This document shows, piece by piece, positions 16,201-46,600 of a stretch of 64,000 nucleotides of DNA (position 1 is its first letter; every line of letters begins with the position of its first letter). Origin of the DNA: Azolla caroliniana. Taxonomy: Eukaryota > Plantae > Polypodiophyta. The stretch covers positions 2,852,001 through 2,916,000 of the forward strand of contig JBHGNT010000012.1 of the NCBI GenBank assembly GCA_043228905.1, written 5' to 3'. The translations under genes were made by a program, and so were the position numbers. A model generated the notes under the pieces. It saw only the letters and a program-made list of their open reading frames with translations, was not told the DNA's origin and made no database searches.

Positions 16201-19200
16201 ATATTAGTATAAATATGACTTAGGGCAAACCTTTAAAGGTCTTCGTCGTCGTCGTTGTTGTTATTCTTGTGCGTGCAAGAATAGAGTGAGTGCATAATAG
16301 TGTACAGAGAGAGAGAGAGCAAGAGGTCGTTGCCTCTGTTGTAACCGCCGCCTGTGGCGAGGATCGTGAGCACGAGGTCGTTGCCTCCGTAAACTCACTG
16401 TTGTACATTCTAGCATAGTGATAGTTTGCAGCCTGTGGGCTGCCGTGGTTTTTCCCTCCTTGGGTTTTCCACGTAAACATCCTGTGTACTCTTCTCCTCT
16501 TTGTGTCGTGCTTTCATCGCCCGTTTTCTGTGTATGAATCTAAGCTTGGTTGTGGCTGAGCATTGCGTATAGGGGAGCGTCTAGTTCCTGTCAAGTGGTA
16601 TCAGAGCAAAACAACACAGAAAATGGACGATTCATTGGAAGGCATGTTCAAGCTCACCGGCTCCAACTATTCGGTGTGGAAGTCGAAGATGAGGGACATG
16701 CTCGTGGTTAAAGACCTCTGTCGGTTTAGTTCGGAGACAAGAGACCGGACAAAATCGACACCGCGATATGGGAGGTGATGCACATGAAGACAACGGCGTA
16801 CATACGGTGCTTCATCGACATGAGCCTGTACAACAACTTCAATGAAGAGAGCAAGGCTCATGAGCTCTGGGAGAAGTTCGGCATAATGTTTCAAAACAAG
16901 AATGTTGTTAATCAGGTTTCAGTATTCCGGAAGCTAGTAAGACTCCGGTACCAAGATGGCTCCAGCATGGCGGAGCACATGAATGCCTTCCAGGGGCTGA
17001 TACACCAGGAAACATCATTGGAAGTACCTCTCGCCGACGAAGTACTAGCGCTACTCCTGCTCGGTTCCCTCCCGGATAGCTGGGAGACGTTGGTTGTCAC
17101 TTTGGGCAACGCCGGGCCCAAAGGAAAACGGTTATCCCTAGCAAGAGCGAAGTCGAGCCTGCTAGATGAGGAGGCGCGTCGAAAAGATAAGGATACGAGC
17201 TCCGACTCCAAAGCGCTCCTTACCGAATCGGAACGCGGAAGACATAGAAACCGTAGTCCCCAGAACCGGGAGAAGTCGGGGACACGATCAAAGTCAAGGG
17301 GGAGGCCTACTTGCTTCTATTGCGGCAAGCCAGGACACTTCCAGAAGAATTGTCGGCATTTCCGTAAAGACAAGGAAATCGACGGCACCGATTCGAAGCG
17401 GACACCGGACCGGAACGGTAAAGACCGTAGGGGACCGGACCGGAAGGGAACGACGGCAATCGCGGCAAGTGAAGAGGAGTTGATGCTCATCACCGAGGAG
17501 AGTGAGATAAACCTTGCCGGCGACGAGATGACCTGGGTGGTAGACTCCGGAGCGTCATTCCATTTTACCCCGGACCGGAAATGCTTGTCATCCTACTCAG
17601 CCGGTGATCACGGCTGTGTCCGGATGGGGAATGAAGGTACATGCCGAATTGTCGGCATAGGAGACGTGTGGCTCTCGACACCAACCGGATGCAAGTTGCT
17701 ACTGAGGGATGTCCGACACGTTCCGGAGGTTCGACTGAACCTAATATCAGCCGGTCAGCTAGATGATGAGGGCTACACGGGTAGCATCCGGAACGGTGTC
17801 ATGAAGTTCAGCTAAGGGAGCCTGATTGTGGCTCGGGCCCGGAAGGTAAACACACTGTACCTGATGAATGCCCGGTTATGCCCGGAAGAAGTGAACGTGG
17901 CATCCAACACTGCCGGTGAGCTGTGGCACAAGAGGCTGTGTCATATGAGCGAGAAGGGGATGAAGAGGCTTGCAGACGACAACCTCATTCCAGTGAAGAA
18001 CGTGCACCTAGAGAAGTGCACTGATTGTCTGGCCGGTAAGCAGAACCGGACCTCCTTCCGACCAAGGCCACCGATGAGACGTAATTCACCACTGGAGTTG
18101 GTGCATACGGATGTGTGTCAAGTAGACACGAAGTCACATGCCGGAGCGCAATACTTCGTGACGTTCATAGATGACCACAGCCGGAAGTTGTGGGCCACAC
18201 CGTTGAAGGCGAAGGATCAGGTGTTATCCGTCTTCAAAGAGCTCCACGCGAGAGTGGAAAGAGAAACCGGCCGGAAGCTGAAGGCGGTTCGAGCAGATAA
18301 CGGAGGAGAATATCGGGGGCAATTCGAGGAGTACTGCCGCTCGAAGGGAATCCAGCTTGAATTTACCGTGCCGAAGACGTGCATGTAGCTAAGGACCGGA
18401 GAGGAAAGTTAGATCCAAAGACCCGGCCATGCATATTCCTCGGTTATGGTGACGATGAGTTCGGCTACCGAGTGTGGGACCTGGTCGACAAGAAGGTATT
18501 CCGGAGTCGAGATATTATCTTCATGGAGAACAAGACGCTCGCCGACTGGGAGTCGGAGAAGAAGATAATGGACTCCGAGTCGACCGGTAAGGATCAACTC
18601 TACGATGAGCAGACCCAACCGGCAAGAGACCGGTTAGCACTCGAGGGACCAGACGGTTACGGTGAGGATACCGAACGGGCTGAAGAAGAAGTAGAGGAAG
18701 CTAAAACCGGAACCGGCCAAGACCCCGAATCGGATTCGGATGAAGAGCAGATGGATGAGCCGGTCACCGAAGCCCAGAGACGGAGATATCCTCTCAGAGA
18801 GAGAAGGCCCCCCCGGAGATTTCCGGATGTAGATCATGTTCTGCTGACCGATGAGGGGGAGCCGGAAAGCTTCGAAGAAGCGAAGGAAGACACCCACAGC
18901 CGAAAATGGTTAAGTGCCATGCAGGATGAGATGGATTCCCTGCATGAGAACCATACGTACGAATTGGTGGAGTTGCCGAAAGGAAAGCGGGCACTCCGAA
19001 ACAAGTGGGTGTACAAGTTGAAACCGGGAGATGTCGGCAACCCCCCGAGATACAAAGCCAGGATCATGGTGAAGGGGTTCCAGCAGAAGAAGGGCGTGGA
19101 CTTCGACGAGATATTTGCCCCGGTAGTAAAGATGACCTCCATCCGGACGGTGCTGAGTATAGCGGCAAGCATGGACCACGAGGTAGAGCAGTTAGACGTG

Positions 19201-20232
19201 AAGACGGCATTCCTTCACGGTGACCTCGAAGAAGAGATCTACATGCAGCAACCGGAAGGATTCGTGGAGAAAGGGAAGGAGCACCTGGTTTGCCGGTTGA
19301 AGAAGAGCCTCTACGGGTTAAAGCAGGCCCCCCGGCAATGGTACCGGAAGTTCGACTCCTTCATGACCGATCAAGGGTACCACAAGACACAGGCCGATCA
19401 CTACGTGTTTGTGAAGAAGTTTGAAGGAGGCGACCTCCTGATACTCCTTCTGTACATGGACGACATGTTGATCGTCGGACGGGACCAAGTCAAAATACGG
19501 ATGCTGAAGAAGGCTCTCAACCGGACCTTCTCAATGAAAGACTTGGGTCCGGCAAGACAGATGTTGGGGATGCATATTATCCGGAACCGGTCAGCGAAGC
19601 AATTATGGCTGGCACAGGAGAAGTACGTGACAAAGGTGCTTCACCGGTTCAACATGTCAGATGCGAAACCGGTCGGATCGACACTTCCGGCAAACTACAG
19701 GTTATCCGGTAAGCAAAGCCCGAAGACAAAAGCAGAGAAGGCGGATATGAGGAAGATTCCATATGCGTCTGCCGTTGGGAGCTTAATGTACGCAATGGTG
19801 TGTACCCGATCGGATATAGGATACGCAGTTGGAGTGGTGAGCCGGTTCATGAGCAATCCCGACAAGTGTCAGGAATAGTACTAAAACAGAGATGGAATTA
19901 GTACTAAAGAACAGTAGTACTATTAGTACTAAGAGAACGGGACTGCGTAAGATTCCCGAGAGAGGAAGTGAGAAGAGGAGAGAGAGAGATAACGAGAATG
20001 AGAGAGAGAGAGATGATGACAGCAGCTAATATATGATGTGAAAAGATAAGTACAAGCGGCTAAGAGGCTTAAGACTGGCATTGAACCAATTTGGTTCAAA
20101 AAAATGCCTTGTGCCTCCTTTTATAGTGTTTTTAGGAATAATCCTGAAGCTTCTAGAATGTTCCAAAGAGATTTGGAATATACATCAATTTTCTATGATA
20201 AAGTATAAATGAAAATAATATCCTACAAAATA

Positions 20233-20300
20233 CAATTCATAGTCTAATGGTAAGATCTCGACCCATGTAGCATAAAGTCATGGGTTCGAGTCTTGCCATA
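20233..20300 (+). other. tRNA-like A/B-box cassette in chromovirus U3 (second copy about 25467-25534)
   Basis: A-box TAGTCTAATGG at 20240, D-stem gtct/agat, B-box GGTTCGAGTC at 20283-20292. Confidence 0.65.
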
Positions 20301-20319
20301 TCATGACACTATCTCCCCC

Positions 20320-23300
20320 TTAAAGACGACGAGTGGAACGAGTCGGCGTTAATTGCGGACCGGGTTTGTCCGGATACTTTCGGTGGAAATCAGCAAGAAG
20401 ATCTTGTGCATTGGCAACATTCTCGACGGGGTTCCCAAGTACGTTCGCTCGGACTATAACCGAGCCAATCGACCAAGTAATAAAGTTTGTTGCGAACAAG
20501 TTTGGAATCGAGGATGGCAACAACTTCATACTCCGGGCCGACGTCCAACTCCAGCAGGGGCGGCGGCGGTGTCACACGATCGGGAATGGTGTTTGCTTTA
20601 TAAGGTTCAAGAAGAGAACAATGGAAAACCGGATGTATCTGAAGCTGCGGAGGGAGATCAAGGCGGAAGGTGACATCATTAATCTTCCCCATAATACGGA
20701 AAGGACCGAGTCGTCGATAATCCAACTTGTCGCACGGTCGAGTAGTCTTGATGTGACGACGTAAGAGCCATACTCAATCTCCGATGGCAAAAGAGGAGGG
20801 AATCCGATGACGATCTGCATAAGTCTTCTGTGTGTGTTGAGCATGACGAAGGTGAGTAGAGAGATCCATCTAGATCTTGCGTAGCCTCTCCAAATGGTCC
20901 TCGGCACGAGGGTTGGTAGGTAGCTCCGGAGTGTCGATCACCGACCAGCGAGGATGGAAACTGGTATAAGCGAAAAATGGGGAGACTCGAGTCGAGGAGT
21001 GAATAGCATTATTATACGCAAACTCCGCAAAGTGGAGAATCTCGGCCCAATCGTCCTGTTGATAACTCAGGAAACACCGGAGATATTGCTCCAACGTTTG
21101 GTTTGTTCGTTCCGCCTGTCCGTCGGTCTAAGGATGGTAGCCAGAGGAGAGGTTGCAGGAGACCTTGAGCATCCTGAATAGATGCTGCCAAAATTTGGAG
21201 ACAAATTGCGGGCCTCGGTCACTGATAATACTGTCTGGGAGGCCATGATGCCGAAATACCTCACGCATAACAAGAGCGGCGGTTTCCTCGCTAGTGATGG
21301 CTTTAGTACATGGCACAAAATGTGCCATCTTCGTATATCGATCGACGACGGTTAGGATAGCATCGAACCCCTTCGAGACCAGCAGATCTGTGATAAAATC
21401 AAGACAAATAGACTGCCATGGCTTACTTGGAATTGATAAAGGTTCCAACAAGCCATATGGATGGTGTTGTGGCATCTTTGCTCAGCAGCAAGCATCACAG
21501 GTCCGAACGTAGTCGTCGACAAAACGGCGCATGTGGGGCCACCAAAAAGATCGTTGCACTAACTCCAACGTCTTGGTACTACCAAAATGTCCCGCCGTAT
21601 GGGTGTCGTGACAATGTTGGACGATTTGAAGGCGACAAGAGCAATCGGGGACATATACGCGCTTTTTAAAGAATAACAAACCATCATGATATTCGAATTG
21701 TCGGTAGTCAATACCTGGTTGTTGAGACTGAGAACAGGATGCCCGAGAAGTATCAATGTGCGCCAGGATGTCTTGAGCAAAACTATCCGTCTTCAAGGTT
21801 GCACGTATGTCATCGGTAATCCGTGAATCCATCGGGGTGTGAAAAATCCGCGTCGTGTGCAATCGTGTTGGTCCCAAGATTAGTTGCTTTTGATTATCAA
21901 ATGTTGCGTCGCCAGGACGAGGTGCAAGATATGAACGCCGTGATAGTGCATCTGCTTTTCCTTGCTGCTTCCCCGGTCGATATGTGATTTCGAAGTCGAA
22001 ACGCGTGAGGAATTGCGCCCACCGAGCTTGCCGTCAATTTAGTACGCGAGCGTTCTGAAAATAAGCAAGATTTTTATGATCGCTAAAGACAATGACCTGA
22101 TGTGGAGAGCCCTCTAAGAAATGCCGCCATTGTACAAATGAATCCACGATGGCTAATAACTCCTTGTCATGTATTTCGTAGTTGATTTCTGCGACATTAA
22201 ATTTGCGCGAATGGAAAGCCACCGGATGCAACTCTTCTTTATCGCCTTGTTGAGAAAGGATGCTACCGAGGGCGAAATCTGATGCGTCGGCCTCCATGAT
22301 GAATGGTTTGCTTGTATCCACATGAGCTAGAATCGGTGCTGATGTAAAGGCTTTCTTAAGATGCCGAAAAGCCATATCTGCTTCGATGGACCAAAGAAAT
22401 GTTTGGCCCTTCTTCGTAAGTTGTGTGAGAGGTAAAATAATCTTCGAGTAATCCTGTATAAACTTACGGTAGAAGTTAGCAAAACCTAGAAAACATTGTA
22501 CATCTCGTACCGACCGTGGAATTTGCCACTCTAGTACAGTTTGGATTTTAGCTGGATCCATGGCGATGCCCTTTGAGGAGATGACGTAGCCTAGAAATTC
22601 CACTTGCTTGCAGTCAAAGCTACATTTTTCTAGCTTGGCATAAAGACCATTCTCGCGGAGTCGCTTTAGTACTAATAGTACATGAGAATTGTGCTCTTCC
22701 TGGGTCTTCGAATAAATCAACAGATCATCCAGATAAATGATCAAACAGATATCCAAGAGGTCTCTGAATATATCATTTGCCATGTGTTGGAAGACTGCGG
22801 GTGCATTGGTTAGGCCAAACGGCATAACAATATACTCGAAATGCCCATACCGCGTGCGAAAAGCGGTCTTCCACTCATCTCCCGGTCGAATCCGCACGAG
22901 ATTATACGCTCCTCGTAGGTCGATTTTAGTAAAAAATTTGGCACCATTAACTCGCTCTAAAAGACTTGATATAAGAGGAAGTGCATACCTATTCCGGATG
23001 GTGACTTTATTTAATCCGCGGTAATCAATGACAAGACGAAGTGAGCCATCTTTCTTCTTGACAAAGAAGATGGGTGCACCGGCCGAAGATTTCGAATGAC
23101 GGATGAACCCGCTTGCCAAGTTCTCCTCTATGTAGGCTCGAAGGACTTCTACTCGGTGGGTGACAAGTTGTAAATTGGTCCCCATGGTGGTTCGGTTCCT
23201 GGTTGTAAATCGATGGGACAGTCATAGGGACGGTGATGAGGAAGGGTACCGGCTTTTACCTTGTCAAATACATCGGCATAAGGATGATATTTTGCCGGAA

Positions 23301-23892
23301 GTTGTATTGAGGAGTCCTTCTTAATAGTGCTAGAAGGATGTACTGATATGGAAAATAGGAACATTGCCTCCTTGGGTTCTTCTTCGCGTAGTTGATGGAG
23401 TGAAATGGTCGAAACTCGGTGAGTTGATTCTTGGGGTGGTCGATATCGGACTTCTCTTGTTCTCCAATCTATGGCTGGATTATGTAATTCAAGCCAAGGT
23501 AATCCTAGGACAATGGGATGCTCTGGACTACAAATTATATTAAATGATATTATACACACAAAACTACCTAGGACAACTTGAATGGGTTCTGATTCTTCTA
23601 CAATATTCCCGGAAGCAATGGGACGACCATCAATGACCACTACAGATGCGGGACAAGGAAGTTTTCTTAAGGATATCTGAGAAGCTTGGGCAAAATTTCG
23701 ATCCATGAAACAGGAATTAGCTCCGGAATCTAAAAGTGCTAGGACGGGTACTGGGGGAGTACTTTTAGTACTAACAATGACTTGGGCTAGGAACACATTG
23801 CTAACTTGCTTGGAAGGAATGGAACCACTAATGGGCTGTACAGATCTAGGGTTGTTGTCCAACCAAATGGCTCCTATTTTGGCTGGACTCAA
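20320..23892 (-). pseudogene. Chromovirus pol (PR-RT-RH-INT-chromodomain), several stops and frameshifts
   Basis: ORFs 23149..23892, 22034..23185, 21482..21877, 21128..21475, 20870..21094, 20390..20725 (EYEVVAILDSK..YYLVDWLGY..TWEP). Confidence 0.92.
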
Positions 23893-23901
23893 TCGTTTAA
23901 C
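23857..23901 (-). promoter_or_regulatory. -1 programmed ribosomal frameshift signal (slippery heptamer plus stem-loop)
   Basis: G TTA AAC just before the gag stop, 6-nt spacer, 11-bp stem gtccagccaaa/tttggttggac; pol opens in the -1 frame here. Confidence 0.75.
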
Positions 23902-25032
23902 TCTTCATCTAATTGACTAAGGATTTCAAATTTATTTGAGATACTTGGGCTATTAGTACTATGAATACTATCTGACACTCTATTAGTACTATTAATACTA
24001 TCAGACACTCCGAAGGGAAGAATTGACTCGGGTTTAATACAGGCGACGATTTGATTTACCTGTCTTCTTGGCCTATGGGGACAATTGATGGCGATATGTC
24101 CCGGTCCACCGCAATAAAGACATAATCGATTGGCACGTCGTCGTTGCTTTTCTTCTTCCGATAACGGGCCGCGTTGACGCATGGTATCGATCTCCATCGG
24201 TGTCGAAGTATTTGCTTGAGGTATGTCTCGTGCAAACGGTTTAGCCGCGATTGCGGCGTAAGTGGGCTCTGGCCTAGAGCGTGGTATCTGTAATTGACGT
24301 TCTGAACGCCGTTCAAAAAGGCGGTTGTCACATCGAACTGCTCGACTAATTGCCTCCGTAAGAGACTTTGGTTCTTCGGGGAAAGTTAGAAGTAGATCTT
24401 TGACATCGTTTCGCAAGCCATAGCGAAACTGCTCCATTAGTGCTTGATCATCCCAGGGTATATCTGAAGCAAGTAGGCGGAAATCCGCCGCGTAGGTAGA
24501 GGCTGGATGATCGCCTTGACGCAATCGCCGGATCTTGTTGATCGCCGTCCTGATGCTGTCGGTGTCTCCAAAGCAGGCTTTAAACTCACCAATAAAATCT
24601 TCAAAGTTATTAAGCAAGGGCGATTGTTTTTCTAGAAGCGGAGCGAACCATGCCAAGCAGCGTGCCTATTAGGCCGACTCGAGATGCATCAGTGGGATAT
24701 CGGGAAGGATGCATCTGGATGACTAAGCGTACCTGATTAAGGAATCCCCGGAATTGCGAACGCGTTCCATCAAATTTCACAGGAAGTCCAATCTTGGGAT
24801 CTTTATGAAATCCTTGGGGACTGGATCCTTGTTGTTGCAACGCTACTTCGAGTTGTTGTACCCGTAACGCTAACTCCCCATGTTGTTGTTGCGTTTGTTG
24901 TTTTTCTAGAGCGATTTGTTGCAAATCCCCTATCAGCCGTTGGTTTTCTTGTTCCAGGGCAACAAACTTTCTTTTTAGGCACTATAGCTCGGAGAAAACG
25001 GATTGGTATTCTTGGGCGCTAACAGTAGCCAT
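23889..25032 (-). pseudogene. Chromovirus gag (PEG10/sushi-like) with CCHC knuckle
   Basis: KFDGTRSQFRGFLNQ, LRQG, CLYCGGPGHIAINCP; early TAG near 24984 and a frameshift near 24656. Confidence 0.9.
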
Positions 25033-28000
25033 AGTATAGGGAAAAGGTTAGGAGGATGAGGGAGAGTGACAAGTAGGCTAGAGGAAGAATTGGTTCAAAC
25101 TGTCAGGAATAGTACTAAAACAGAGATGGAATTAGTACTAAAGAACAGTAGTACTATTAGTACTAAGAGAACGGGACTGCGTAAGATTCCCGAGAGAGGA
25201 AGTGAGAAGAGGAGAGAGAGAGATAGCGAGAATGAGAGAGAGAGAGATGATGACAGCAGCTAATATATTATGTGAAAAGATAAGTACAAGCGGCTAAGAG
25301 GCTTAAGACTGGCGTTGAACCAATTTGGTTCAAAACAATGCCTTGTGCCTCCTTTTATAGTGTTTTTAGGAATAATCCTGAAGCTTCTAGAATGTTCCAG
25401 AGAGATCTGGAATATACATCAATTTTCTATGATAAAGTATAAATGAAAATAATATCCTACAAAATACAATTCATAGTCTAATGGTAAGATCTCGACCCAT
25501 GTAGCATAAAGTCATGGGTTCGAGTCTTGCCATATCATGACAGCAAGGAGCACTGGAACGCAAACAAATGGATACTCCGGTACTTGAAGGGCACCTCGCA
25601 TATGTGTCTCCGATTCGGCTCCGGAAAACCTCAACTTGACGGTTTTACCGATTCAGACATGTCGGCTGATGTGGATACCAGCCGGTCCACATCCGAGTAT
25701 GTAATGACATATGCAGGGGGAGCTGTTTCAGTCGAGGGTGCAGAAGACGGTTGCGTTGTCAACCACAGAGGCGGCGGAGTACATGGCAGCTGTGGAAGCC
25801 GGCAAGGAAATCTTATGGATGAAGGACTTCATCGGAGAGCTCGGTGTCCGGCAAGATGAATATCGGCTCTATTGCGACAGTCAAAGTGCCATCCACCTTG
25901 CTAAGAATGCGGCCTACCATTCCCGGACGAAGCATATCTAGCGCAGATATCACTGGATCCGGGAAAGAGTATATGACCAGGAGTTCGCACTGACGAAGAT
26001 CCACACGGCCGAGAACGGGTCAGATATGCTGACAAAAGTGTTGATACCCGACAAGCTGGATGCATGCCGAAAGAGGATCGGTCTAGTAAGACACCCCATG
26101 CCAGAGTGAAGGGGGAGTTTGTTGGGAGACAGGTCCCTCCGGATGGGAAGGGAGAAGAACAGTGCTGATGAACAAACTCGGCCGAGGCCAATAGACCGAG
26201 GCCGAAACCGGATGAGGAGTACCCGGCTACGGAGAGCCGGATGGTGCAGACCCGGCTACGGAGAACCGGATGGTACAGACCCGGTGAAGAATGCTCTCCG
26301 GATGAAGAGACATATTTGTAAATATGTTTCTGAGAGTCCATCGTGGCTATATTTGTAAATAGCTGAAAAGTCATATTAGTATAAATTCTACTTAGGGCAA
26401 ACCTTTAAAGGTCGTCGTCGTCGTTGTTGTTGTTATTCTTGTGCGTGCAAGAATAGAGTGAGTGCGTAACAGTGTACAGAGAGAGAGAGAGAGCAAGAGG
26501 TTGTTGCCTCTGTTGTAACCGCTGCCTGTGGCGAGGATCGTGAGCACGAGGTCGTTGTCTCCGTGAACTCACTGTTGTACATTCTAGCATAGTGATAGTT
26601 TGCAGCCTGTGGGCTGCCGTGGTTTTTCCCTCCTTGGGTTTTCCACGTAAACATCCCGTGTACTCTTCTCCTCTTTGTGTCGTGCTTTCATTGCCCGTTT
26701 TTTGTGTATGAATCTAAGCTTGGTTGTGGCTGAGCATTGCGTATAGGGGAGCATTTAGTTCCTGTCAATAATGGTGTTTGTCACTCTCGAGTCCTCGATC
26801 TTATCCTTGGCCGACCTTCCTTTGCAAGACAAGAGGGTGGCTTGTTCCACACCCTCTCTTGTAGTACCGTTATACTGCACTTCGTCTTTCGTATCGCCCA
26901 CAAAATTCACCCGAAATCGCCGAGACGCGACTTTCTCCTCATCCACCATTTCTCTCAGTTTCGACTCCGTTGGAATCTTCCCTTCGGCCTCGACTTGCAA
27001 CTTCAAGCTCTCATATGCCTCTCTTACCAAGGCTTCCATGTCCTGCACCATCAAACCCTTCCGCCTCAAGCTCTCTTCCTTAGGCGGTAGCATGTCGTCA
27101 CATTTCGTTCCTCTTCGATCATCCCTCCTAGGCCATCTTGTTGCAGACGAGATTCCCGCTCCCTCCTTATCATGTCGTCAACACACTGTTCTCACTTGGG
27201 CCCAATTCTCGTTCGCACTGTCGTCATCCTCAAGTTGGACCCCTATGGCCTCCCTTTCCTTCCGACCGATTGATTTTACAAACAATAGCACCTTATCCAC
27301 CCCCACCAATCGCTCCAAGAGTTGAGCATAACGATGCTCGAACTCTAGGAATGCTTGCATTGCGCTTTGATGGGCCTTCGCCGATGCTACCCAATGGTCG
27401 AACTCGCACCGACCTCTTCCCTTCGGTCTTGCGTAGCCGTATGCCTCTAATAGAGCTTCCCCAAAGGATTCCCACGAGTCATGAGCTTCTCGAAGCTCCT
27501 TCACCTCTTTGTGCGTCGATACGGCCACCACTCGGCAAAAATATTCTAGCCTTGTTGCTTGGCCCACATCTTTGCTTTTTGAGGTTTGCTTGGCCCACAT
27601 CTTTCGTATCCACTTGGCCCACATCTTTGCTTTTTGAGGTTTGCTTGGTCTCTTTGTCGCACACATTTGCTTTTTTCTTCATGCTTTGCTTGACCTCTTT
27701 GTCGCACACATGGACTTTCGTCATTTTGCTTTGCTTTACTTCCATGTTGCACACATTTGCTTTAACCCTTGCCCCCACTCCATCATCTCAGCATTGTAGG
27801 CCCTCAAAAATTTTGGGACCTCGTCCCCGTTGAACCGGCCGACTCGATCAACCACCCTCTCGATGGCTTGTTGAGCCGCATCTCGCTTCGCCATCTTCCG
27901 TCCGGCTTCCATCACGACGTTTGCCATCATCTCCTCGAAGTCGAAGTCTTCTTCCATCTCCATGCTCCCTTTCACTTCCTATTATTTATATAATAAGTAA

Positions 28001-29558
28001 ACATCTAGAAAACCATACTCTCTCTCCTCCCTACTTTTCACCTCTCCTCTTTCTTACTTTTTACACGAAACCCTATACCTCCTTTTCACCCTTCCTTTTC
28101 CCTTTTCTTTTGTATGTGCACAACTAATTGCCTTCGTGTGCACACAATTTGCACATGCACATTTTGACCCCCCTTTCGCTAGTTTTTCCCACACTCGAGC
28201 ACGCCACATCACGACAACGTAAGGTGCACATTCGTACCAATCCTATCGTGTTCCTCATTGTTATGATGTCTCTGTTGTCGACTGCTAGTTGAAACTAATC
28301 GTAGCCTGAGTAGAGATCACCAATAGAATAAATTGACCTTCCCGCAAATGCTTCTACGAACTCATTGATACTTGGACCATTTCCAGCATTGTGGATCGTC
28401 ACCTTATTCATTGGTTGAAGAACTTGGATGAACCTTAAGGTTCCATTCTTCTTTGGTACCGTGAACCACCTATTTGAGTAAGGAGCATTCGACGGTTCCA
28501 GAATTCCCATCTCGACCTTCTCTTTCAAGAGCTTGATTAATTTTGGAATGTGTGCTCTTGGGACAAGTATCGGCTTCATGTTCCATGGCACATGTGATAT
28601 TGTGAATATCACCATCGGTTCTATTATCCTTGGATCTACACATTCTATTTCGTTTGGATAGAATAAATGTTTTCCCATGTCTTCGAGCATTTCCCGAAAT
28701 GTGACTTCTTCTTCTAGCAAGAGAAATTCATCTTTCCCGACACCAGGCTTCTTTTTTGTCTCTTTAGTGAAGGTATGTCTGATTCCTCTTAGATCCCTTA
28801 GGCTTGGATCTCATGCAACTACCTTCATTATTTGCCAGCTATTCTCAGGTAGTGGAATAACAACAGGCTTTACTTTCTTGTCCATAGTTTTGTATTTTGT
28901 ATTAACTTCGACTATCTCGGCCATGATACTTCGATTATACTTGTCGATGGCAACTTACATTTCAATGGAGTTTATCTGAATTGATTGTTGGCTATGAGGG
29001 CTCAAGTCCACAACATTCTCCATTTCACCAATGGTGTTGTTAAATGAGGCTTCCTCCATAATCCATTTAATGCTTTCATCGCTTTCCATTATTTGTTCTT
29101 CCCTTAAAGCTTCCTTGAAGCTTTGCATCCGAGACTTCTCTTCTTTATCAAATGTGTTGATTTTGCACACTCCATTAGGGATTACGTATAATACTTCTTT
29201 CGCAAATTCGCGAAATTTTCTTCCTTCTTGGGGCATACGCTTGTTTGGACTATTCACGCCCCACTCGCAAATAGCCCGACCTAAAAATGCGAAGCATCTT
29301 CTCCAAGACTATCCCAGTTCCTTTTGTTGTTGGCACATACAGTCAGGAATTGTACGGCCTTCTTCCCGTCAAGACTCCTTACTCAAGCAAATGCCGCACC
29401 ATTGTCAAACACTTTGGTTTCCATCGGGGACGATGTTATGTATGGTTGCCCAAGAATGATAGGATGGGATGTCATATCTTGAATAAAAAAATGTTGATCT
29501 ATCTTGACATCACCAATCGTGATGGGGATATGAGGACATGTACCATACAGGTCTTTGG

Positions 29559-31668
29559 TGTCACGGATGAGTATAATAGAGTAGAACCAAGACGAGACTA
29601 AGAACTAGGAGAGAGACAAAAAACAAAAACTTGACTTATGATTCCATAACTAGTGTTGTTCACCTTGATTAGAATCAAGGTGCACCTGAGTATTTATACA
29701 AGAAGGTAGAGGTATGTATGCTAGCTAGGAATAGAGAATGCATGAAGAGCATGCAAGCTAGTATTTCCAATGCTCAATCTACCATACATGAAGTTGGATT
29801 TTATACCAGGATTCATTGATGGATGTAGCTTCGTTGGTAGGGTTGCCCAATGGAGACCAAGAGGTCTTGGGTTCAATCCCTACCTTCCATTGTGGGTATG
29901 CAAATGTCATAGATGTCTATGACATTATCCACCCCCTAAGGCCGCCTTCGAAGATCTGTGGCAGGCTTCTGTGGGTACTGTTGATGAAAAGCTCAAGCTT
30001 GAATGGCCTCGGGAGCATTTTGTAAATGTGTAACCGGTTCCTACGTGGTATCCAAAATGGGGTAACCTTTCCATAAGACCAAATATTAAATGTGACTAGC
30101 TTGATTCGCTCGATGATACAGAAGGGGCCTAGCTTTTTGTAGTCTAGCTTCGCGCAGGGATGGGTGGTGGCGATGTGATGACATAGCAACCAAACCATGT
30201 CACCGACTGCAAAGGTCAACGCGGCCAAGCGATGACGGTTAGCATGATCCTTATACTGTTTGTCAGCGATATGGAGCTCAAGGGAGAGGTCACGATGGAC
30301 ATCTTGTAAAGTACGGGCACGCATATCTGCCGACGGATTGATGGAAATCGCAGGAATGGAAATGTTGAAACGAGGGTGGAACTCATAGTTTACAAAGAAT
30401 GGGGAAACCTTAGTTGAGGCATGGATAATATTATTGTAGGAAAAATCTACCATGGCAAGGAAGTCCACCCAATCCTCTTGTTGGTAGCTTACTATACACC
30501 GGAGGTATTGTTCGAGGATTTGGTTGACTCTTTCTGTGCGCAATTAACAAGATCACAGAAGTCCTGAATGTTTGCAGAAGTTGTCGCCATATGTGGGAGA
30601 TAAATTGAGGGCCTCAATCAAAGGTGAAATCCTCGGGTAAACCGTGTAGACGAACGACATTTTTCAAACAAAAATCCGTCGTCTCCTCCCCCGAAATGGT
30701 TTTTGAGCATGGGACAAAGTGAGCCATCTTCAAAAACCGATCGACGATCACTAGCACCGTGTCATGGCTACCGACACGAGGGAGGTCGGTTATAAAGTCC
30801 ATTGAGAGAGAGACCCAAGGTCGACTGGGAAGTAGAAGCAGGTGGAGAAGGTCGTATGGACGATGGTGAGCCTCTTTGGAGTAGGCACAGACGTCACGCA
30901 TCTTGATAAATTCATTGACAAATTTCCAAGGTTGGGGCCACCAAAACCCCTGAGATAGCAACTCCATTGTTTTCGCAACCCCAAAGTGGCCAACAAGAGG
31001 ATCATCGTGGCAATTTTATAGGACTCAAGTGCGACATGCTATAGTTGGTACGTAAAGGAGGTGATTACGATAGAGTAGCCAATACCGAGTTGTAAAGTGA
31101 CTGAGATCCAAGCTTTGCATTCCCTAGCATGGGTCATTGATGCACGCCAGGATGTCGGTAGTGAATGGGTCTGACACGGTGGCCTGGGCGATTTCATTGC
31201 ACAAGTATTCATCATGCAGCATGTAGGTTACGAACATCTGGAGTTGATGGGGCCGCAATAAAAATGTGATTATTGAGAATATGCCTCACCAGTTACGAAA
31301 TCATAAGTCAAGTTCTTGTTCTTTTTCTCTCTCCTAGTTCTTAGTCTCATCTTGGTTCTACTCTCTTATACTCGTCCGTGACAACTTGTTCACCTTGATT
31401 AGAACCAAGGTGCACCTGAGTATTTATACAAGAAGGTAGAAGTATTTATGCTAGCTAGAAATAGAGAATGCATGAAGATGCATGCAAGCTAGGAATAGAG
31501 AATGCATGAGGATGCATGCAAGGTAGGAATTTTCAACGTTCAATCTACCATACATGAAGTTGGATTTTATATACGTAGATGGATGTAGCTTAGTTGGTAG
31601 GGTTGCCTAATGGAAACCAATCCCTACCTTCCACTGTGGGGTTGCAAATGTCATAGATGTCTATGACA
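29559..31668 (-). mobile_element. Internally deleted chromovirus-type Gypsy (second family) with a rearranged 5' LTR
   Basis: 3' LTR 29559-29924, PPT (reverse) ttatccaccccct, integrase fragments (SMDFITDLP, KLDYKKLGPF), 5' LTR remnant 31386-31668 plus inverted R-U5 31287-31383, TSD tttgg/ttcgg. Confidence 0.85.
29819..29890 (+). other. tRNA-like cloverleaf in U3 of the second chromovirus (B-box-deleted copy at 31579-31634)
   Basis: Acceptor stem atggatg/cttccat (6 of 7 pairs), A-box TAGCTT(C/A)GTTGG, B-box GGTTCAATCCC with T-stem. Confidence 0.7.
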
Positions 31669-33001
31669 TTCGGTAGCTTTCGTTGTCGTGCAGATCTTCC
31701 ATCGATGATTTGTATTTATGGGTCATCTTCCCTTTTTGTAGACCTCATTCGACATAAGATTGATCTCGGACCCAATGATGGTCTATTAAAGCTACGACTA
31801 TTTCTTTTCTCTCTCCCAACTTTATTGGCGTCTCCATCGTCGCTCGTACCTAATGAGGCCAAGTATAGTGGTTGTCCACCATATCTTCATAGACTTCATC
31901 CATTGCCATCATTATGGCATTTTCTTTTGCTTTTTGTGGCTTCTCTTCTTCCTTGTCTAACTATTGCCTTTTTCTCTTTGTGAGCTCCATGATCGTATCA
32001 TGGAACTCCTTCATAATGCCGAGCAATTCCCTCAATGACAAGGTCATGTGGCTATCAAGAACATGTTCCTCGAAAATCTTCTTCGGATATGTCGTTTGTT
32101 CTATGTCCGACCTTAGCTTATAGGTAGGCATAGTTCTTGTCTTCCGAGCAGGGTCTTCAACATCAACCCTCATGGGCCGAACCGTTTCTTCGACGTGTTT
32201 GCTCGACTGCCCTTTCCGGCTTGAATCTCCATCCTCCATTCATAAAGCTCAACTTGCTTCCACATCGTCTACCTTTTTTGCGCTCCTTGTTTCATGTCTT
32301 TTTTATGGGTTTTCTTGCCCTTCCATTCTTTTTCTCTTTTCATCCACGCACACCTCGTGGTTGTCACACATCACTTCTGCGAGTATGGTGTTGTCATACA
32401 CCGAATCCGACCATCCGGTTATACTTTGCACACTTTGGTCTGCAGGCTCTACCTCGTTTGAAGTGACTTTCCCCTTCTTCTCATACTCAAGAACTGTAGA
32501 CCAAAACTTTGTTCCCGTTCTAGCAGGTTCATTTTTATCTTTCCCGACTCTTATTACGGCCGATGCCGCATAGTGCATCACATCCACATGAGTCACCTCG
32601 GCATCTTCCATAGCTTTCTTCATTCCCCCTCTTCCGAAATTCACCCGCAAGGGTCTTCTAGTTTCACTCGAGCAAATCATGTTGCCATGCATGTATACAA
32701 TATTTTCTCAGATGGCCTCACTAGGGCTCGTACAATCCCTTCTCGTGTGGTCCAAGCTATCACACCACACACATCTGAAGGGTTCTTTTACTTTTGTCCC
32801 CCAATGATTCATGTTCATTAGTGTGACCATCTCGAACTTATTCATTAATTCTTCAATGATGTCATCATCGATCTTCTTTTCGTCCAGGTTGTTTTGTTTA
32901 GGCGACCATGCTCGTTTTTTCCATGCTCAAGCCATTGACGACGCTTGTCAAGCTTGTTGCACGCTCGCTTCACCGCAACCCAGTCTATCACAAGCCCGTT
33001 C

Positions 33002-38272: not shown

Positions 38273-40921
38273 CTATCTTGAACTCTCCAACTTCAAACTT
38301 AGCATTTCTTCATGCATGCCAGCAGCTGCATATATATTTCTCATGCATATGTATGCAGCAGAGCATTTCTCATCCAGCTGTATTGATTGATCAAATGCCC
38401 ACTTTCCAAGCTCTACATTCACACATTTATGACAAGCACCTAAAAGAGCCAAATAAAGGTGAAGACGGTCTGAAGACACCACATTCTCAATTACTCTCAT
38501 GGCTTTGTCAAAATGCCCTGCATGACTAAGAAGGTCAACCATACAACTGCAGTGTTCATAAGTTGGACAGAGCCCGTAGATGAGGGTCATATCACTAAAG
38601 AAAATTTGCCCCTCCTCTACTAAACCCCCATGATTGCACGCATTTAGAAGAACAAGAAAAGTAACTAGATCTGGTACAATATTTTCAACGAGCATTTTGT
38701 GGAGTAGGATTATAACCTTTTGGGCCTGACCTAACTGGGCATATCCAGTTAGCAGTGAATTCCAAGTTACAACATTTCTATTTGGAAGACTATCAAATAC
38801 TTCCTGTGCTTTTCTAATAACACCACTCTTGGCATACATGTCTACCAATGCAGTGCCTAACACAACATCTTTTTGCAATAAACCTTCCATATTGACCTTA
38901 GCATGTATCTCTTCACCTATCTCAAGAAACCCTATGCTGCAACAGGCCTTCAAAACACAAATAAAAGTGACTACATCAGGAGAGTAACCTTCATCTTGCA
39001 TCTGTTTATAGTACTTCAGAGCTTCATCACCAAGACCATGTTGGGCATACCCTGAAATTAGTGCATTCCATGATAACACATTCCGACATGAGAGTTCATT
39101 AAAGACTTCTAGTGCTTTGTGAAACACTTTACACTTGGTATACATATCTATCAATGCAGTGCCAAGAACAGTATTGTTCTTTAGTAATCCTTTCTTGTGA
39201 ACCTCGGTATGTATTTCTTCGCCCATCTTAAGACACCCTATGCTACCACAAACTTTTAAAATGCAAATAAAAGTTACTGCATCTGGAGAGAAACCTGCAC
39301 TTTTCATCTTGAAGAAGCAATTAAAAGTTTCATCAGTTGTACCATGCTCAGCATAACCTGCAACCAATGAATTCCAAGATACAATATCATGTTTCGGAAG
39401 CTTATCAAATACTTCTTGTGCTTTTTGAATTGCACCACATTTGGCATACATGTCAACCAATGCATTTCCAAGGACAATATTTTGCTCCAAAAGCCCCTTC
39501 TTCCGAACCTCAGCATGTATCTCTTCTCCTCTCTCAAGGGATCTAATGCTGCTACATGCTTTCAAAATACAAATAAAGGTGACCGAATCTGGAACAAAAC
39601 CCTCACCTCTCATTTTGTTAAAGCAATTCAGCGCTTCATTAGCAAACCCATATTGGGCATATCCAGCTATAAGTGCACACCATGATGCAACATCTCTTGC
39701 TGAAAGCTTATCAAATACATCTTGTGCTTTTTCAAGCTGGGCACATTTTGCATACATGTCCACCAATGCAGTACCCAACACAATATCATTTCCCAATAAT
39801 CTTCTTTCACTGATCTCCGCATGTATCTCTTCTCCTATCTCAAGCGCTCCTATGCTTCCACAAGCTTTCAAAATACAAGCAAATGTTATGGCATTGGGTG
39901 AGATGCCCTCATCTCTCATTTGTTTGAAACAATTCAAAGCTTCATCACTAAGCCCACATTGAGTATACCGTACCATCAACACATTCCACGATACAACATT
40001 CCGCTTAGGAAGCTCATCAAACACTTTTCTAGCTTTACCTAACATTCCACACTTAGCATACATATCCATCAGCGCATTTCCAAGAACAACATTTTTTTCC
40101 AATAACCCTTGTTTCTTGACTTCAGCATATATCTCTTCTCCCATATCCAGACATTCTATGTGCCCACAAGCTTTCAAAATGCATACAAAAGTAACTATAT
40201 CCGGAGATATGCCTTCATCTTGCATCTTTCTAAAACATGCCAAAGCTTCATTACCAAGTTCATGTTGAGAATATCCTGTGATTAATGTATTATAGGTTAC
40301 AACATCATGTAGTGGAATCTCATCAAACACTTTTTGCGCTTTTCCCAACATATTACATTTAGCATACATGTCTATCAAAGCATTTCCAACAATAATATTT
40401 GTTTCTAGTAACCCTTGTTTGCTAACATTAGCATGTATCTCTTCCCCTACATCAAGAGATCCTACTCTACCACAAGCTTTCAAAATGCAAATAAAAGTGA
40501 CAGCATTTGGGGAGAATCCTTCACTTTTCATATGTCTGAAGGATTCTAACGCATTGTGAGCTAATCCATGGTGGATATATGCTGTGATTAAAGTATTCCA
40601 AGTGACCACGTTTCGGATGGGGAGCTCATCAAACACTTTTCGAGCTTCTGAAATCGAACCACATTTGGCATACATGCTAATCACAGCATTACTAAGGTAG
40701 ATATCCTTGGTGAGCATTTCATTGCGAACAAGTCTACCATGCAGTTCTCTGGCTTTCTGTAGATCCTTCTTTTGCCCACAAAGCTTTAATGAGTCTAACA
40801 AAGAGCTAGGGTCGTGAGGAAGGCTGTCCTCTTTCTTCTTCTGCATCTGCTTCTTATGAGGCAGCTCTCTTTGAACCTCCATGGTATGATTCTGAAAAGA
40901 AACAGGGTGTACTGTCATCAT
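38273..40921 (-). CDS. PLS-class pentatricopeptide repeat protein with E domain and no DYW (organellar RNA editing factor type)
   Basis: Intact, intronless 882-aa ORF with about 7 regular P-L-S triplets (ALVDMYAKCG, VVSWNALI.GY, PD.VTFICILKAC) ending in an E-like domain (LALLGACHKCVNVELG...AAYICMRNIYAAAG). Confidence 0.93.
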   Translation of the reverse strand: MMTVHPVSFQNHTMEVQRELPHKKQMQKKKEDSLPHDPSSLLDSLKLCGQKKDLQKARELHGRLVRNEMLTKDIYLSNAVISMYAKCGSISEARKVFDELPIRNVVTWNTLITAYIHHGLAHNALESFRHMKSEGFSPNAVTFICILKACGRVGSLDVGEEIHANVSKQGLLETNIIVGNALIDMYAKCNMLGKAQKVFDEIPLHDVVTYNTLITGYSQHELGNEALACFRKMQDEGISPDIVTFVCILKACGHIECLDMGEEIYAEVKKQGLLEKNVVLGNALMDMYAKCGMLGKARKVFDELPKRNVVSWNVLMVRYTQCGLSDEALNCFKQMRDEGISPNAITFACILKACGSIGALEIGEEIHAEISERRLLGNDIVLGTALVDMYAKCAQLEKAQDVFDKLSARDVASWCALIAGYAQYGFANEALNCFNKMRGEGFVPDSVTFICILKACSSIRSLERGEEIHAEVRKKGLLEQNIVLGNALVDMYAKCGAIQKAQEVFDKLPKHDIVSWNSLVAGYAEHGTTDETFNCFFKMKSAGFSPDAVTFICILKVCGSIGCLKMGEEIHTEVHKKGLLKNNTVLGTALIDMYTKCKVFHKALEVFNELSCRNVLSWNALISGYAQHGLGDEALKYYKQMQDEGYSPDVVTFICVLKACCSIGFLEIGEEIHAKVNMEGLLQKDVVLGTALVDMYAKSGVIRKAQEVFDSLPNRNVVTWNSLLTGYAQLGQAQKVIILLHKMLVENIVPDLVTFLVLLNACNHGGLVEEGQIFFSDMTLIYGLCPTYEHCSCMVDLLSHAGHFDKAMRVIENVVSSDRLHLYLALLGACHKCVNVELGKWAFDQSIQLDEKCSAAYICMRNIYAAAGMHEEMLSLKLESSR

Positions 40922-40968
40922 GTCTCAGCAGTATCTATGATATGATATGGTACCAAGGAGAGGTGTGG

Positions 40969-43640: not shown

Positions 43641-46600
43641 TCACTTACAGTACATATGCTGCACAAATCCAGAAAACCATCTTTTAACAGAAAACAACAC
43701 TCACCCATATATGCAAGAGCCCATGCCTCTGTCCACCATCCACACTACTAATTTCATACGACTTAGCTCACTCTCTTCAATGTGAAATGGGGACTCTTCA
43801 ACCATGAATGTTTTTCCCCAAACAAGTTCAGTGAGTCTTATGTATCACTTCAAATCCAGCTCAACCCAAATAAGAGATCGATACACTCTTGTGTATCTTG
43901 TTGATCTTATATAGAGATGTCATCACTGAATCAATAAGGTGGAATCAGTCAGTTTCGGTAAAACAACCATCAGGATTGGCAGGACTTGAACCCGCCGGTT
44001 TGGAAGATGGAGGCACTGTTTTGGTTAAATGAAGTAACTGGAATTTCGATAGATATTCAATTGCAGAATTATGATGCAAATCCGTACAATGAAAGGCTGT
44101 CGTCAGTCTCCGACAATAAAATGTTCCCTAATTTGGTCCAATTGATTCTATCTATTAAGGAAAGTGGAGATGATGAAAGCCTGTTAATTTTCACTACACC
44201 CTTGATACATAGATGTCCATCTGTTTCCCAAGCAGAGGATATGCTCATTATGTCATACAGGACAATCTGTGGAACACTACTGAAGCTACAGTACAGTTTC
44301 CTATGAGATCTAAGAATGTTTCCATTGCCTCTTTAAGGAGGGATTCCGACCATTCTCCTGAGTCATGGACTTGATCAGAGATGCTTGGGGCTGTTTCTAT
44401 GAGAGATTTGTAGATTTATAGTCTTTCTTGAAGAGTAGCCAGCTAGCAGGACTTGTACAAAGGCAGATGACAGGCTTTCCACTAAATGAGCTCAGAATGG
44501 GATAGATACCTCAACACAAAATGGGTAAGCACAATGCCCTACAGTCCCCGAATACCAACATACACAGGTTTCAAGGGTTAAAACTTGCCAAATGTCTGAG
44601 ACCTCAACAATAGGTTTTTTCATAATATGTTCAAAATAGTCCAAATGACAAGATGGAGATATTGTTCCAATTTTTACGATAATGGGAACTACAACACAAT
44701 TGGAATATGCATAATGCTTTCATGTTTGACAGTAGACATGGAGTGGAAGCCTATATGACGAAGTAGAAAGGTATTCTTATGTGGAATTTCTGGATGTTAA
44801 AGCATGTGGGGATCATTTCCTCAAATGCATATTCAGGTTTTCTAGTGGCATTACAGAACGTCCCTCTCCCAACATAGGATAGGATAGATAGGTAGAGGAG
44901 ACTCAGAAGTGTTGTAACAAGTGGATTTTACATACAATTAATATAATTGTGTGCTTTTACCAAAATCAAATATAGGATATGCATCTAATGTATCGCTCAT
45001 ATGTGTGAGATATCTCAAGATGAATGCCACTCATGTGGATCTCTTTTCTCTAAGGGTTTCCATATTTATAAAGGATCCAGTGTTTGAATCAGTTTAGACA
45101 GATCCTTGGGCATTATATATGAGGCAAATTTGTTTGTATATATAAAAAGAGGGGATCTTAGGGAGTTATATATTGCAATTTGCTACTTTCCACCTGCCTA
45201 CTCAAGGTTTGCACCTCTAGGTGAATCACCATATCTACCACTATATGATGATATCATAAGATTTGCTACTATGGGGGACATAATACTATTAGGAGATTTT
45301 AATGCAAGAACCAAGGATGAACAAACAACTATGTTTAACACCAATGAGGCTGTTTATGGAGAAGTTATGGCGGAAGAGGTTGGTCTAAAGCAACAAGCTC
45401 AAGATATGAGTGCTATAACTGAATATGGAAAACACTTTCTAGCCTTGGGAAGCGCGCATGGATTTGTGATATATAATGGCTTGTCACAATGGCCTGGATC
45501 AGATGCTTTGACATGTTGGAACCCAAAAGGGGGTGCCAGCACAATCGATTATCTAATGGGATCTCCATCTCTTATACCTGAAATAAAAGTGTTCACTATA
45601 TCGGGAAGACCTATTGGCTTGGCAGCTGATCATGCATATCTACGCTTTGAGGTAATGGATGGATGCACAAAGGATGTATATGCTAAGGAGAGTGGGCTGG
45701 CTAAGTATCTATTCACTCGCGAGACAATTGATGTGTATAGTTGTGGTGTATACGATGGCATGCTAGATTTGGATCCATTCGCACCCCTTGAAGAACTTAC
45801 CCAAGGTTCATCCAAATCATTGCATAAAGCAACCACAAATGCCTTCCCTCACACAACGGCCAATCCCCCCAAACTCGGTAGAGTAATACAAAATAGTTGG
45901 TATGATGAGGATTGTCGTGATACAAGGAAATGCTTGCAGCGTGATGTAACTCAGGGCATTTATACACACAACCAAGCGAGAGCAACCTTCCAACGCCTCG
46001 TGAGGAAGAAGAAGAGATTGTATTTGGCTAAATTTGAAGATCATTTGTATCGCTTGTTTCTAGGACAAGAGAGTAAACGAGCCTGGAAAATGTTTAATGA
46101 GAGGCAACCCACCACACAACTGACCTCACCTGAGGTGTGGCAGGAATATGCAAAGGTTCTATATGATATCCCAGGGCAACCCCCTCTTCCCCACCCAAAT
46201 GCCTCATGCCCACATGAATCAACCCTCTTTACACCATAAAATGTAAGAACCGCCATTGATCGGCTACAATTTGGGAAGGCCCAAGATCATGATGGATTGG
46301 TGGGTGAGCACTTTATCTATGCCCGTGACACCTTGCTCCCATTGCTAGCACACATCTTTAATAGAGCCATGTGTGAAGGTTTTCCTACTAGATGGACTCA
46401 ACATACCATTGTGCCAATCCTCAAGAGTGGAGACCCCATGATGCCAAGCAACTATAGGACAATCATGATTGGCCATTACTTGGCTAAACTATATGGCTCG
46501 ATTCTAGAATCAGAATTGAGTATATGGGCAGAGCAAAATGGCTGCCGTTCAATTGGACAAGCAGGCTTTCGGAAGGGGTTCACAACTTTGGATCACATAT

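What the first reader, a model, noticed from the sequence alone, without database searches (positions are those of the whole stretch)
31287..31400. Fossil of the self-primed strong-stop structure: R-U5 inverted exactly at the primer boundary
Seen: on the element strand the 5' LTR reads U3 - CAAGGTGAACAA - gt - [reverse complement of U5-R, tgtcacgga...actggtg] and then jumps into pol sense sequence (ggtgaggcatattct). Compared with the intact LTR (29559-29670), the inverted 97 bp ends precisely at the base after the putative primer. The 2-nt spacer matches family 1 in length, and the TSD (tttgg/ttcgg) is kept. Inference: primer + spacer + anti-U5/R is the layout of a Tf1-type minus-strand strong-stop product. 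It was either captured by aberrant reverse transcription or produced by inversion between the PBS and R inverted repeats plus a deletion. Either route indicates PBS/R complementarity in a second family whose PBS region is otherwise deleted.
Basis: partly seen in the sequence, partly recalled or inferred. Interest (0 to 1): 0.75.

Follow-up and report, generated by a model that had tools for sequence, protein, structure and literature searches.

The report
Self-priming retrotransposon misfires fossilised genome-wide
A dead plant jumping gene has the front part of its left terminal repeat flipped exactly at an 11-base site that pairs with its own primer-binding site, and dozens of independent copies in two families share this flip, which likely arose when the wrong copy of the element's built-in primer started DNA copying before insertion.

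Summary
The 5' end reads U3 - 11-nt primer - 2-nt spacer - reverse U5/R - jump into pol; independent short-read contigs bridge both junctions. Intact relatives carry a PBS complementary to this primer, not to a tRNA (380 exact hits). The same fixed junction occurs in 67 independent copies from two families with different primers (roughly 3-6% of 5' ends) and in 0 of 90 copies of a tRNA-primed copia. The second junction varies, clusters near base 12 (14 of 56, 2.7 expected) and never restores the PBS as a clean inversion would. Three copies are TSD-flanked palindromes with two U3 ends; three run on into anti-PPT in minus-strand order. This points to formation before integration: the U3-attached plus-strand copy of the self-primer likely pairs with a PBS and is extended. 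It is a by-product of Tf1-type self-priming, which for plant Tcn1-like elements the papers I read only predict. Corrections: PBS 11 nt, spacer GT/AT, exact end blurred by 4-nt microhomology. The scan noted related dead-end products on other DNA (e1-8618958, e1-7882470).

The parts
29554..29558 (.). target-site duplication at the 3' LTR end (tttgg)
29559..29924 (-). normal 3' LTR: U3 29924-29667, primer copy 29666-29656, R-U5 29655-29559
29925..29937 (-). polypurine tract abutting the 3' LTR
   Evidence: purine-rich run seen in the sequence; role inferred from position
29950..31286 (-). broken pol remnant in sense orientation (integrase zinc-binding domain and Tf2-like SH3); gag, PR, RT and RH are absent; a further gap of about 180 bp near the 3' end
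   Evidence: Pfam PF17921 and PF24626; mapping to a natural intact copy
31287..31383 (+). R-U5 (97 nt) inverted relative to the element; ends at or within 4 nt of base 12 of the predicted transcript
   Evidence: (I4)
31384..31385 (-). 2-nt spacer copy (GT here; AC or AT in 27 other family-2 copies, as expected from intact GT/AT)
31386..31396 (-). 11-nt self-primer copy AAGGTGAACAA, the reverse complement of the family PBS; the fixed breakpoint
31397..31668 (-). 5' U3 in normal orientation with TATA box (31428-31421, 32 nt before the primer) and an anti-primer arm (31412-31406) that can fold onto the primer
31669..31673 (.). target-site duplication at the 5' end (ttcgg; 1 mismatch to the other copy)
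19864..25542 (-). comparison: unrearranged family-1 chromovirus with a different self-primer (AATTGGTTCAA); its family shows the same rearrangement elsewhere in the genome
15893..26768 (+). control: copia element with a tRNA-type PBS at 16596-16607 (tRNA-Met assignment recalled, not tested)

Best explanation
This copy is one of dozens of independent, dead retrotransposon insertions in which U3 and the 11-nt primer sequence are joined to the reverse copy of spacer-U5-R, and they likely formed inside the particle when the U3-attached plus-strand copy of the self-primer paired with a primer-binding site and was extended by reverse transcriptase. SHOWN: the primer lies in R and so is present in both LTRs and in plus-strand DNA; it is exactly complementary to the PBS; the first junction is fixed there, the second is variable; many products carry TSDs. 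INFERRED steps: (1) PPT-primed plus-strand DNA (U3-primer...) anneals to a PBS on genomic RNA or on another plus-strand strong-stop DNA. (2) RT re-runs minus-strand initiation, copying spacer, U5 and R. (3) It stops early, or at the cut 5' end of the RNA near base 12, or it runs through. (4) Having no PBS at its 3' end it cannot make the normal second transfer and jumps, often by 2-8 nt of microhomology, to an internal site on a minus strand, or goes on to U3 or PPT. (5) Integrase inserts the product because both ends are still valid LTR ends. Origin before integration as a whole (this statement plus rival 1) is about 0.85.
For: Recurrence: 39 hits for family 2 plus 1 new, and 90 hits for family 1; the backward-read control pattern gave 0. 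After inspection 67 copies remain (28 + 39), with no shared flank and no identical second junction. Specificity: two unrelated primers show it, and 0 of 90 inspected tRNA-primed copia PBS sites (of 99 found) are followed by anti-LTR. No clean inversion: the reciprocal junction has 0 exact hits in family 2, and 10 of its 12 one-mismatch hits were inspected and are ordinary LTRs; both of the 2 family-1 hits are ordinary LTRs. Formation before integration: three palindromes with two U3 ends and perfect 5-bp TSDs (L226, L244; L091); 29 of 67 copies have both ends and a TSD with 0-1 mismatch, including multi-switch copies and two with no LTR differences (L232, L234). Minus-strand order spacer-U5-R-U3-PPT-pol, which joins 5'-LTR and 3'-LTR context, in L099 and L241; L259 also runs through U3 into antisense internal sequence. 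Stops cluster at the predicted cut site: 14 of 56 within 6 nt of base 12 versus 2.7 expected, 0 of 200,000 simulations reaching it. Overlaps of 2-8 nt in 14 of 22 well-matched second junctions. Repeated PPT priming and surplus dead-end plus-strand strong-stop DNA are described for Ty1/Ty3 (PMC5371799, passages).
Against: No cDNA, RNA or TSS data: base 1 of the transcript is inferred from TATA spacing and from the pairing. The direction of priming cannot be read from the final duplex; a hairpin cut at its stem would also give stops near base 12. 42 of 56 stops are not within 6 nt of base 12. The clustering test uses a uniform null, 7 of 56 values were entered by hand, and microhomology blurs the ends. 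The microhomology count has no formal null, and 6 of 22 junctions have 3-18 unassigned bases, which would also fit host end-joining. The copia control is one family and has modest power (chance of 0 in 90 is about 0.06 at a 3% rate and 0.004 at 6%). 38 of 67 copies lack a recognisable second end or TSD. The window copy itself is old (U3 17 of 247 and R-U5 9 of 97 substitutions), so its own history is less clear than that of the class.
Confidence: 0.6

Rival explanations
1. Same pairing, opposite direction. [quoted passage not shown] The hairpin supplies a U3 end to integrase together with a second molecule, and host repair opens the loop, fills in and joins.
For: It gives the TSD-flanked two-U3 palindromes directly. 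Variable end points along U5-R fit variable loop nicks. Extra bases at some second junctions. L160 shows a PBS extended by about 10 nt of anti-U3 before returning to the leader.
Against: Run-through into anti-PPT and pol (L099, L241) needs an extra upstream-primed plus strand. Clustering at base 12 needs a cut at the stem edge. L160 also fits an upstream start site.
Confidence: 0.25
2. After integration, the 11-bp inverted repeat (primer in R, PBS) causes inversion or replication template switching in the chromosome, followed by deletion.
For: The inverted repeat exists in every intact copy, extended by an inner stem. TSDs would survive such an event. L080 re-enters at the spacer-PBS, close to a clean inversion.
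Against: The reciprocal junction was not found. It cannot readily place a second U3 end exactly against a TSD (L226, L244, L091), nor join spacer to anti-PPT. Copies with identical LTRs already carry it.
Confidence: 0.1
3. The true minus-strand strong-stop DNA, with its RNA primer, was pasted into or recombined with a 5' LTR through the 11-nt primer overlap.
For: Same letters and the same end near base 12.
Against: It needs a separate joining step to U3 in all 67 copies and does not explain the two-U3 palindromes any better than direct priming does.
Confidence: 0.04
4. Assembly artefact (fold-back long reads or repeat mis-joins).
For: Palindromes are a known long-read artefact (recalled). The palindrome L156/L226 could not be bridged by public contigs.
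Against: Both window junctions are bridged by independent contigs. The palindrome arms differ by 4 and 15 substitutions (L226, L244) and have non-palindromic flanks with perfect TSDs. The breakpoint is fixed in 67 loci.
Confidence: 0.01

Closest known systems
Tf1/sushi self-primed reverse transcription (Tf1, Tf2, Tj1, Tosmo; passages of PMC7175516, PMC4600332, PMC5341516, bioRxiv 10.1101/2022.12.06.519325)
   Same: 11-nt 5' primer in R complementary to a PBS just past the 5' LTR; an inner stem beside the primer:PBS duplex; LTR termini TGTCA...TGACA.
   Different: Those passages describe the normal pathway. None describes integrated products in which the U3-attached primer copy is used. Cleavage at 11/12 is not tested here.
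Plant Tcn1 chromoviruses (Neumann et al. 2019, PMC6317226: passages and one supplementary table row; Novikova et al. 2010, PMC2864245: passages)
   Same: 5-bp TSD, overlapping gag/pol, chromodomain with aromatic cage, self-complementary PBS (self-priming predicted for 83% of Tcn1).
   Different: Self-priming is a prediction there; here the by-products mark the primer boundary in the genome. Young family-2 copies (about 5.3 kb) lie just under the listed range (5466-9444 bp). Clade placement was not tested by phylogeny.
Aberrant strand-transfer products of retroviruses (asymmetric LTRs and inversions in HIV-1 proviruses, PMC9278108, passages; Pulsinelli and Temin 1991 seen only as a cited title)
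   Same: Defective integrated copies with deletions and inversions attributed to RT template switching.
   Different: No fixed breakpoint set by a built-in primer/PBS repeat; inversions were about 1% each in two classes in that study.
Self-priming of HIV-1 minus-strand strong-stop DNA at cTAR (PMC6088434, section 5.1 passages) and dead-end plus-strand strong-stop DNA of Ty1/Ty3 (PMC5371799, passages)
   Same: Strong-stop DNA folding back or piling up as a dead end.
   Different: The HIV reaction is in vitro, on the minus strand, and suppressed by nucleocapsid. Here the products are integrated and involve the plus-strand U3 end.
Auto-integration inversion circles (SISYPHUS, PMC7197481, passages)
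   Same: Inverted retrotransposon segments made inside the particle.
   Different: Auto-integration joins an LTR end to a random site. Here the U5 end keeps its own spacer and PBS and the crossover lies inside the primer/PBS homology.

Membership tests
Tf1/sushi-type self-primed LTR retrotransposon | PBS complementary to the element's own LTR about 30 nt after the TATA box, not a tRNA-type PBS | tested here: met
   380 exact LTR-spacer-PBS junctions; primer 32 nt after the TATA start across subfamilies; primer:PBS duplex in 31 of 31 folds. The PBS was not compared with the host tRNA set.
Tf1/sushi-type self-primed LTR retrotransposon | Three-duplex 'pretzel' around the PBS | tested here: inconclusive
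   Central duplex and inner stem predicted (z = -1.7); the third duplex 3' of the PBS was not seen in that fold.
Tf1/sushi-type self-primed LTR retrotransposon | Transcript starts at primer base 1 and RNase H cuts after base 11 | not testable with these tools
   No RNA data; only indirect support from stops near base 12.
Tcn1 clade of chromoviruses | Ty3/gypsy order PR-RT-RH-IN with a C-terminal chromodomain and aromatic cage | tested here: met
   Natural copy L129: RVP_2, RVT_1, RT_RNaseH, rve, SH3_Tf2-1, Chromo; cage-position Y, W, Y read from the translation (positions judged from recall). The window copy itself has lost most of this.
Tcn1 clade of chromoviruses | 5-bp TSD and gag overlapping pol | tested here: met
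   TSDs; L129 gag frame 742-1764 and pol frame 1725-5318.
Tcn1 clade of chromoviruses | RT-RH-IN phylogeny places it with Tcn1/Tf1-sushi | not tested
   No reference sequences were available to the tools; the atlas and PDB (best hit Ty3) do not resolve clades.
Replicating non-autonomous derivative (TRIM/LARD-like) | Same deleted structure amplified to several loci with an intact PBS | tested here: not met
   All 67 copies have different second junctions and flanks; the 5 duplicates set aside pair with another hit, each on a small contig.
Auto-integration product | Processed LTR end joined to a variable target | tested here: not met
   The U5 end is followed by the family spacer in 65 of 67 copies (25 AC + 2 AT of 28; 38 AC of 39) and then the PBS, at one fixed site.

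The most novel reading that the evidence does not exclude
Self-priming has a built-in failure mode absent from tRNA-primed elements: the primer is duplicated into every LTR and every plus strand. The anti-primer hairpin in U3, kept with changing letters across subfamilies and present in both families, is a safety catch that hides the U3-attached copy. When the catch fails, the element integrates promoter-driven antisense and hairpin copies of its own leader at a few per cent of insertions, which would seed silencing of the family in the manner of a 'killer' locus.
Probability: 0.25. Interest if true: 0.8.

Novelty: new variant of a known kind. Interest (0 to 1): 0.6.

Why it matters
In the papers I read, self-priming is shown experimentally for fission-yeast Tf1 and only predicted for plant Tcn1-like elements. 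These insertions are sequence-level records that the primer:PBS pairing is actually used, and they mark the primer's 3' boundary to the base in two families. They also give a simple genome-mining test for self-priming in any lineage (search for U3-primer-spacer-antiU5), a look at how self-primed elements handle the second strand transfer, and evidence that integrase accepts two U3 ends. Standard LTR finders would likely miss or mis-annotate such copies (inference).

Tried and rejected
Clean-inversion searches found none. False positives removed: 7 of 40 family-2 hits and 3 family-1 hits (L160, L177, L179) were antisense reads of intact 5' LTR-PBS junctions or unrelated; 5 family-2 duplicates and 1 family-1 duplicate on small contigs were set aside; 46 of 47 two-mismatch and 1 of 18 one-mismatch family-1 hits were not inspected. 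Dropped before the base-12 count: 9 run-through copies, L255 (donor only 76% alike) and L249 (no donor). The first family-1 intact pattern was too narrow (4 hits) and was replaced (1123 hits). No RNA holder listed. Laying contigs on the palindrome L156 was uninformative: no bridging contig, and the stretch missed one end. Atlas and PDB searches did not resolve the clade. One search was a meaningless 10-nt fold. Literature: eight full-text searches showed no description of this product; searches returned 0 papers. The primary Tf1 papers, the Tf1/Tf2 review and Pulsinelli and Temin 1991 were not held and may describe such cDNAs. The per-element table of Neumann 2019 was not among the 5 supplements held, so primer letters could not be compared with published Tcn1 elements.

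Full report
OBSERVATION. The element lies on the minus strand, 31668 to 29559. Its 3' LTR (29924-29559) is normal and preceded by a purine tract. Its 5' end reads U3 (272 nt), the 11-mer AAGGTGAACAA (31396-31386), GT, 97 nt of reverse-complemented U5-R (31383-31287; 91% complementary to 29559-29655), then pol in sense orientation (integrase zinc finger and SH3). The TSD differs by one base. The two LTRs differ by 17 of 247 (U3) and 9 of 97 (R-U5) substitutions, so the insertion is old. Public short-read contigs from two studies bridge the two junctions without differences; the best holder may be the assembly's own sample.

INTACT RELATIVES. The genome holds 380 exact matches to LTR end + 2 nt + PBS + CC. 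In 40 of them that were fetched, the spacer is GT (33) or AT (7) and the PBS is the reverse complement of the 11-mer. The 11-mer starts 32 nt after the TATA box in several LTR subfamilies that otherwise differ. Primer and PBS pair in the minimum-energy fold of 31 of 31 copies with an exact primer, with an inner stem. A young natural copy encodes PR-RT-RH-IN-SH3-chromodomain in a frame overlapping gag. These are the features listed for Tcn1 chromoviruses (PMC6317226, passages and one supplementary row); no tree was built.

RECURRENCE. A motif for U3 + primer + NN + TGTCA gave 39 hits in family 2 and one more with a subfamily motif. The equivalent for family 1, whose unrearranged member lies at 19864-25542 and uses a different primer, gave 90 hits against 1123 total LTR-PBS junctions. 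After removing false hits and duplicates, and leaving 47 family-1 hits uninspected, 67 copies remain (28 + 39). They share no flank and no identical second junction. Rough rates are at least 31 of 1123 in family 1 and 26 against 380 in family 2. In a tRNA-primed copia from the same window, 89 of 90 inspected PBS sites lead into gag and none into anti-LTR; this control has modest power.

ANATOMY OF THE CLASS. The first junction is always inside the primer/PBS homology and carries the reverse copy of the spacer (65 of 67). The reverse U5-R then runs for 5 nt up to its full length. Of 56 copies that stop inside U5-R, 14 stop within 6 nt of base 12 (2.7 expected under a uniform null; 20 within 12 nt, 5.0 expected; 7 values entered by hand). 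The window copy is one of two at position 0, but relatives show GGTG near the pol landing site, so its end is uncertain by up to 4 nt. Landing sites are scattered over gag, pol and U3 in either orientation, with 2-8 nt overlaps in 14 of 22 well-matched junctions and 3-18 unassigned bases in 6. Nine copies run through the primer into anti-U3. Three of these end exactly at the U3 terminus and are flanked by perfect 5-bp TSDs: palindromes of about 600-680 bp with two left ends (L226, L244; L091). L099 and L241 continue into anti-PPT and antisense pol; L099 then flips to sense, ends in a normal 3' LTR and has a perfect TSD. In all, 29 of 67 have both ends and a TSD with at most one mismatch, and two have no LTR differences.

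WHEN AND HOW. A chromosomal inversion makes two junctions. The reciprocal one (anti-R, PBS, leader) was not found in either family (2 of 12 one-mismatch family-2 hits not inspected). Two U3 ends abutting a TSD, and spacer joined through to anti-PPT, are readily explained by nucleic acids in the particle and not by a resident element. The common step is pairing of a U3-attached primer copy with a PBS. I favour extension of the plus-strand U3-primer end as a false minus-strand primer (0.6), because stops cluster where the RNA is predicted to be cut and some products follow the minus-strand path through first transfer. Ty1/Ty3 are described as priming repeatedly at the PPT and accumulating surplus plus-strand strong-stop DNA (PMC5371799, passages), which would supply such ends. 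Fold-back of the PBS end with host repair (0.25) gives the same duplex and cannot be excluded. All mechanistic steps are inferred.

A POSSIBLE SAFETY CATCH. Just upstream of the primer, U3 carries an anti-primer arm (z = -2.9 as DNA). Its letters differ among family-2 subfamilies while the pairing stays; in a 3'-LTR context the first six primer bases pair with it at mean probability 0.97, and above 0.5 in 30 of 31 copies. Family 1 has its own version, but 7 of 34 sampled copies, from other subfamilies with the same primer, keep only about 6 bp of it or less, so it is not universal. A role in hiding the 3' or plus-strand primer copy is a hypothesis.

COMPARISON AND NOVELTY. Self-priming is known (Tf1) and predicted for Tcn1; strand-transfer errors, strong-stop fold-back and auto-integration inversions are known in retroviruses, Ty elements and copia (passages of PMC7175516, PMC5341516, PMC4600332, PMC2864245, PMC3601003, PMC9278108, PMC6088434, PMC7197481, bioRxiv 10.1101/2022.12.06.519325). 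Eight searches showed no account of a recurrent, primer-anchored integrated product, but the primary Tf1 papers were not readable and may mention such cDNAs. Earlier unchecked notes of this scan report two-left-end inserts (e1-8618958) and dead-end products of a self-priming BEL/Pao family (e1-7882470) in other genomes; my reading was fixed before these were seen and they are not counted as support. Verdict: real, recurrent, a new variant of a known kind; interest 0.6.

Noticed in passing
L181-L184, L191-L220, L111-L150, L160: bases directly 3' of the PBS: The bases just after the PBS vary strongly between copies (C runs of different length in family 2; many variants in family 1). Some match U3 upstream of the primer (L194, L160). 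This would fit variable start sites and cap or untemplated copying at the primer's 5' end.
   Followed up: partly
window 31412-31386 and 29682-29656; family-1 LTRs at 19864-20308 and 25098-25542: Anti-primer arm in U3 forming a hairpin with the primer, in both families, with different letters among subfamilies; weak in some family-1 subfamilies.
   Followed up: partly
L131, L138, L140, L141, L145, L147, L150: A short non-coding family-2 derivative (about 1.5-2.3 kb, LTR pairs 93-99.5% alike) with an intact self-primer and PBS; it shows the same rearrangement (L101, L259).
   Followed up: partly
L099, just after the primer: An 11-nt stretch (spacer copy plus the start of anti-U5) is duplicated, as if synthesis restarted.
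   Followed up: no
L102 (G000:C20:13511255-13511547): Three tandem copies, 135 bp apart, of a U5-spacer-PBS-leader unit.
   Followed up: no
L228: Single LTR with a 47-nt anti-U5 segment that then flips back to sense R-U5; no TSD found.
   Followed up: no
window 14706-28216: Three nested layers: family-1 gypsy (19864-25542) inside the copia (15893-26768) inside a further element with 250-bp direct repeats.
   Followed up: no
window 38273-40924 (-): 883-aa PPR open frame with a 306-bp repeat period and a weak E-motif match.
   Followed up: no
window 45088-46239 (+) and 53456-53537 (-): Weak endonuclease/exonuclease/phosphatase match, probably a LINE remnant; tRNA-Tyr(GTA) gene.
   Followed up: no
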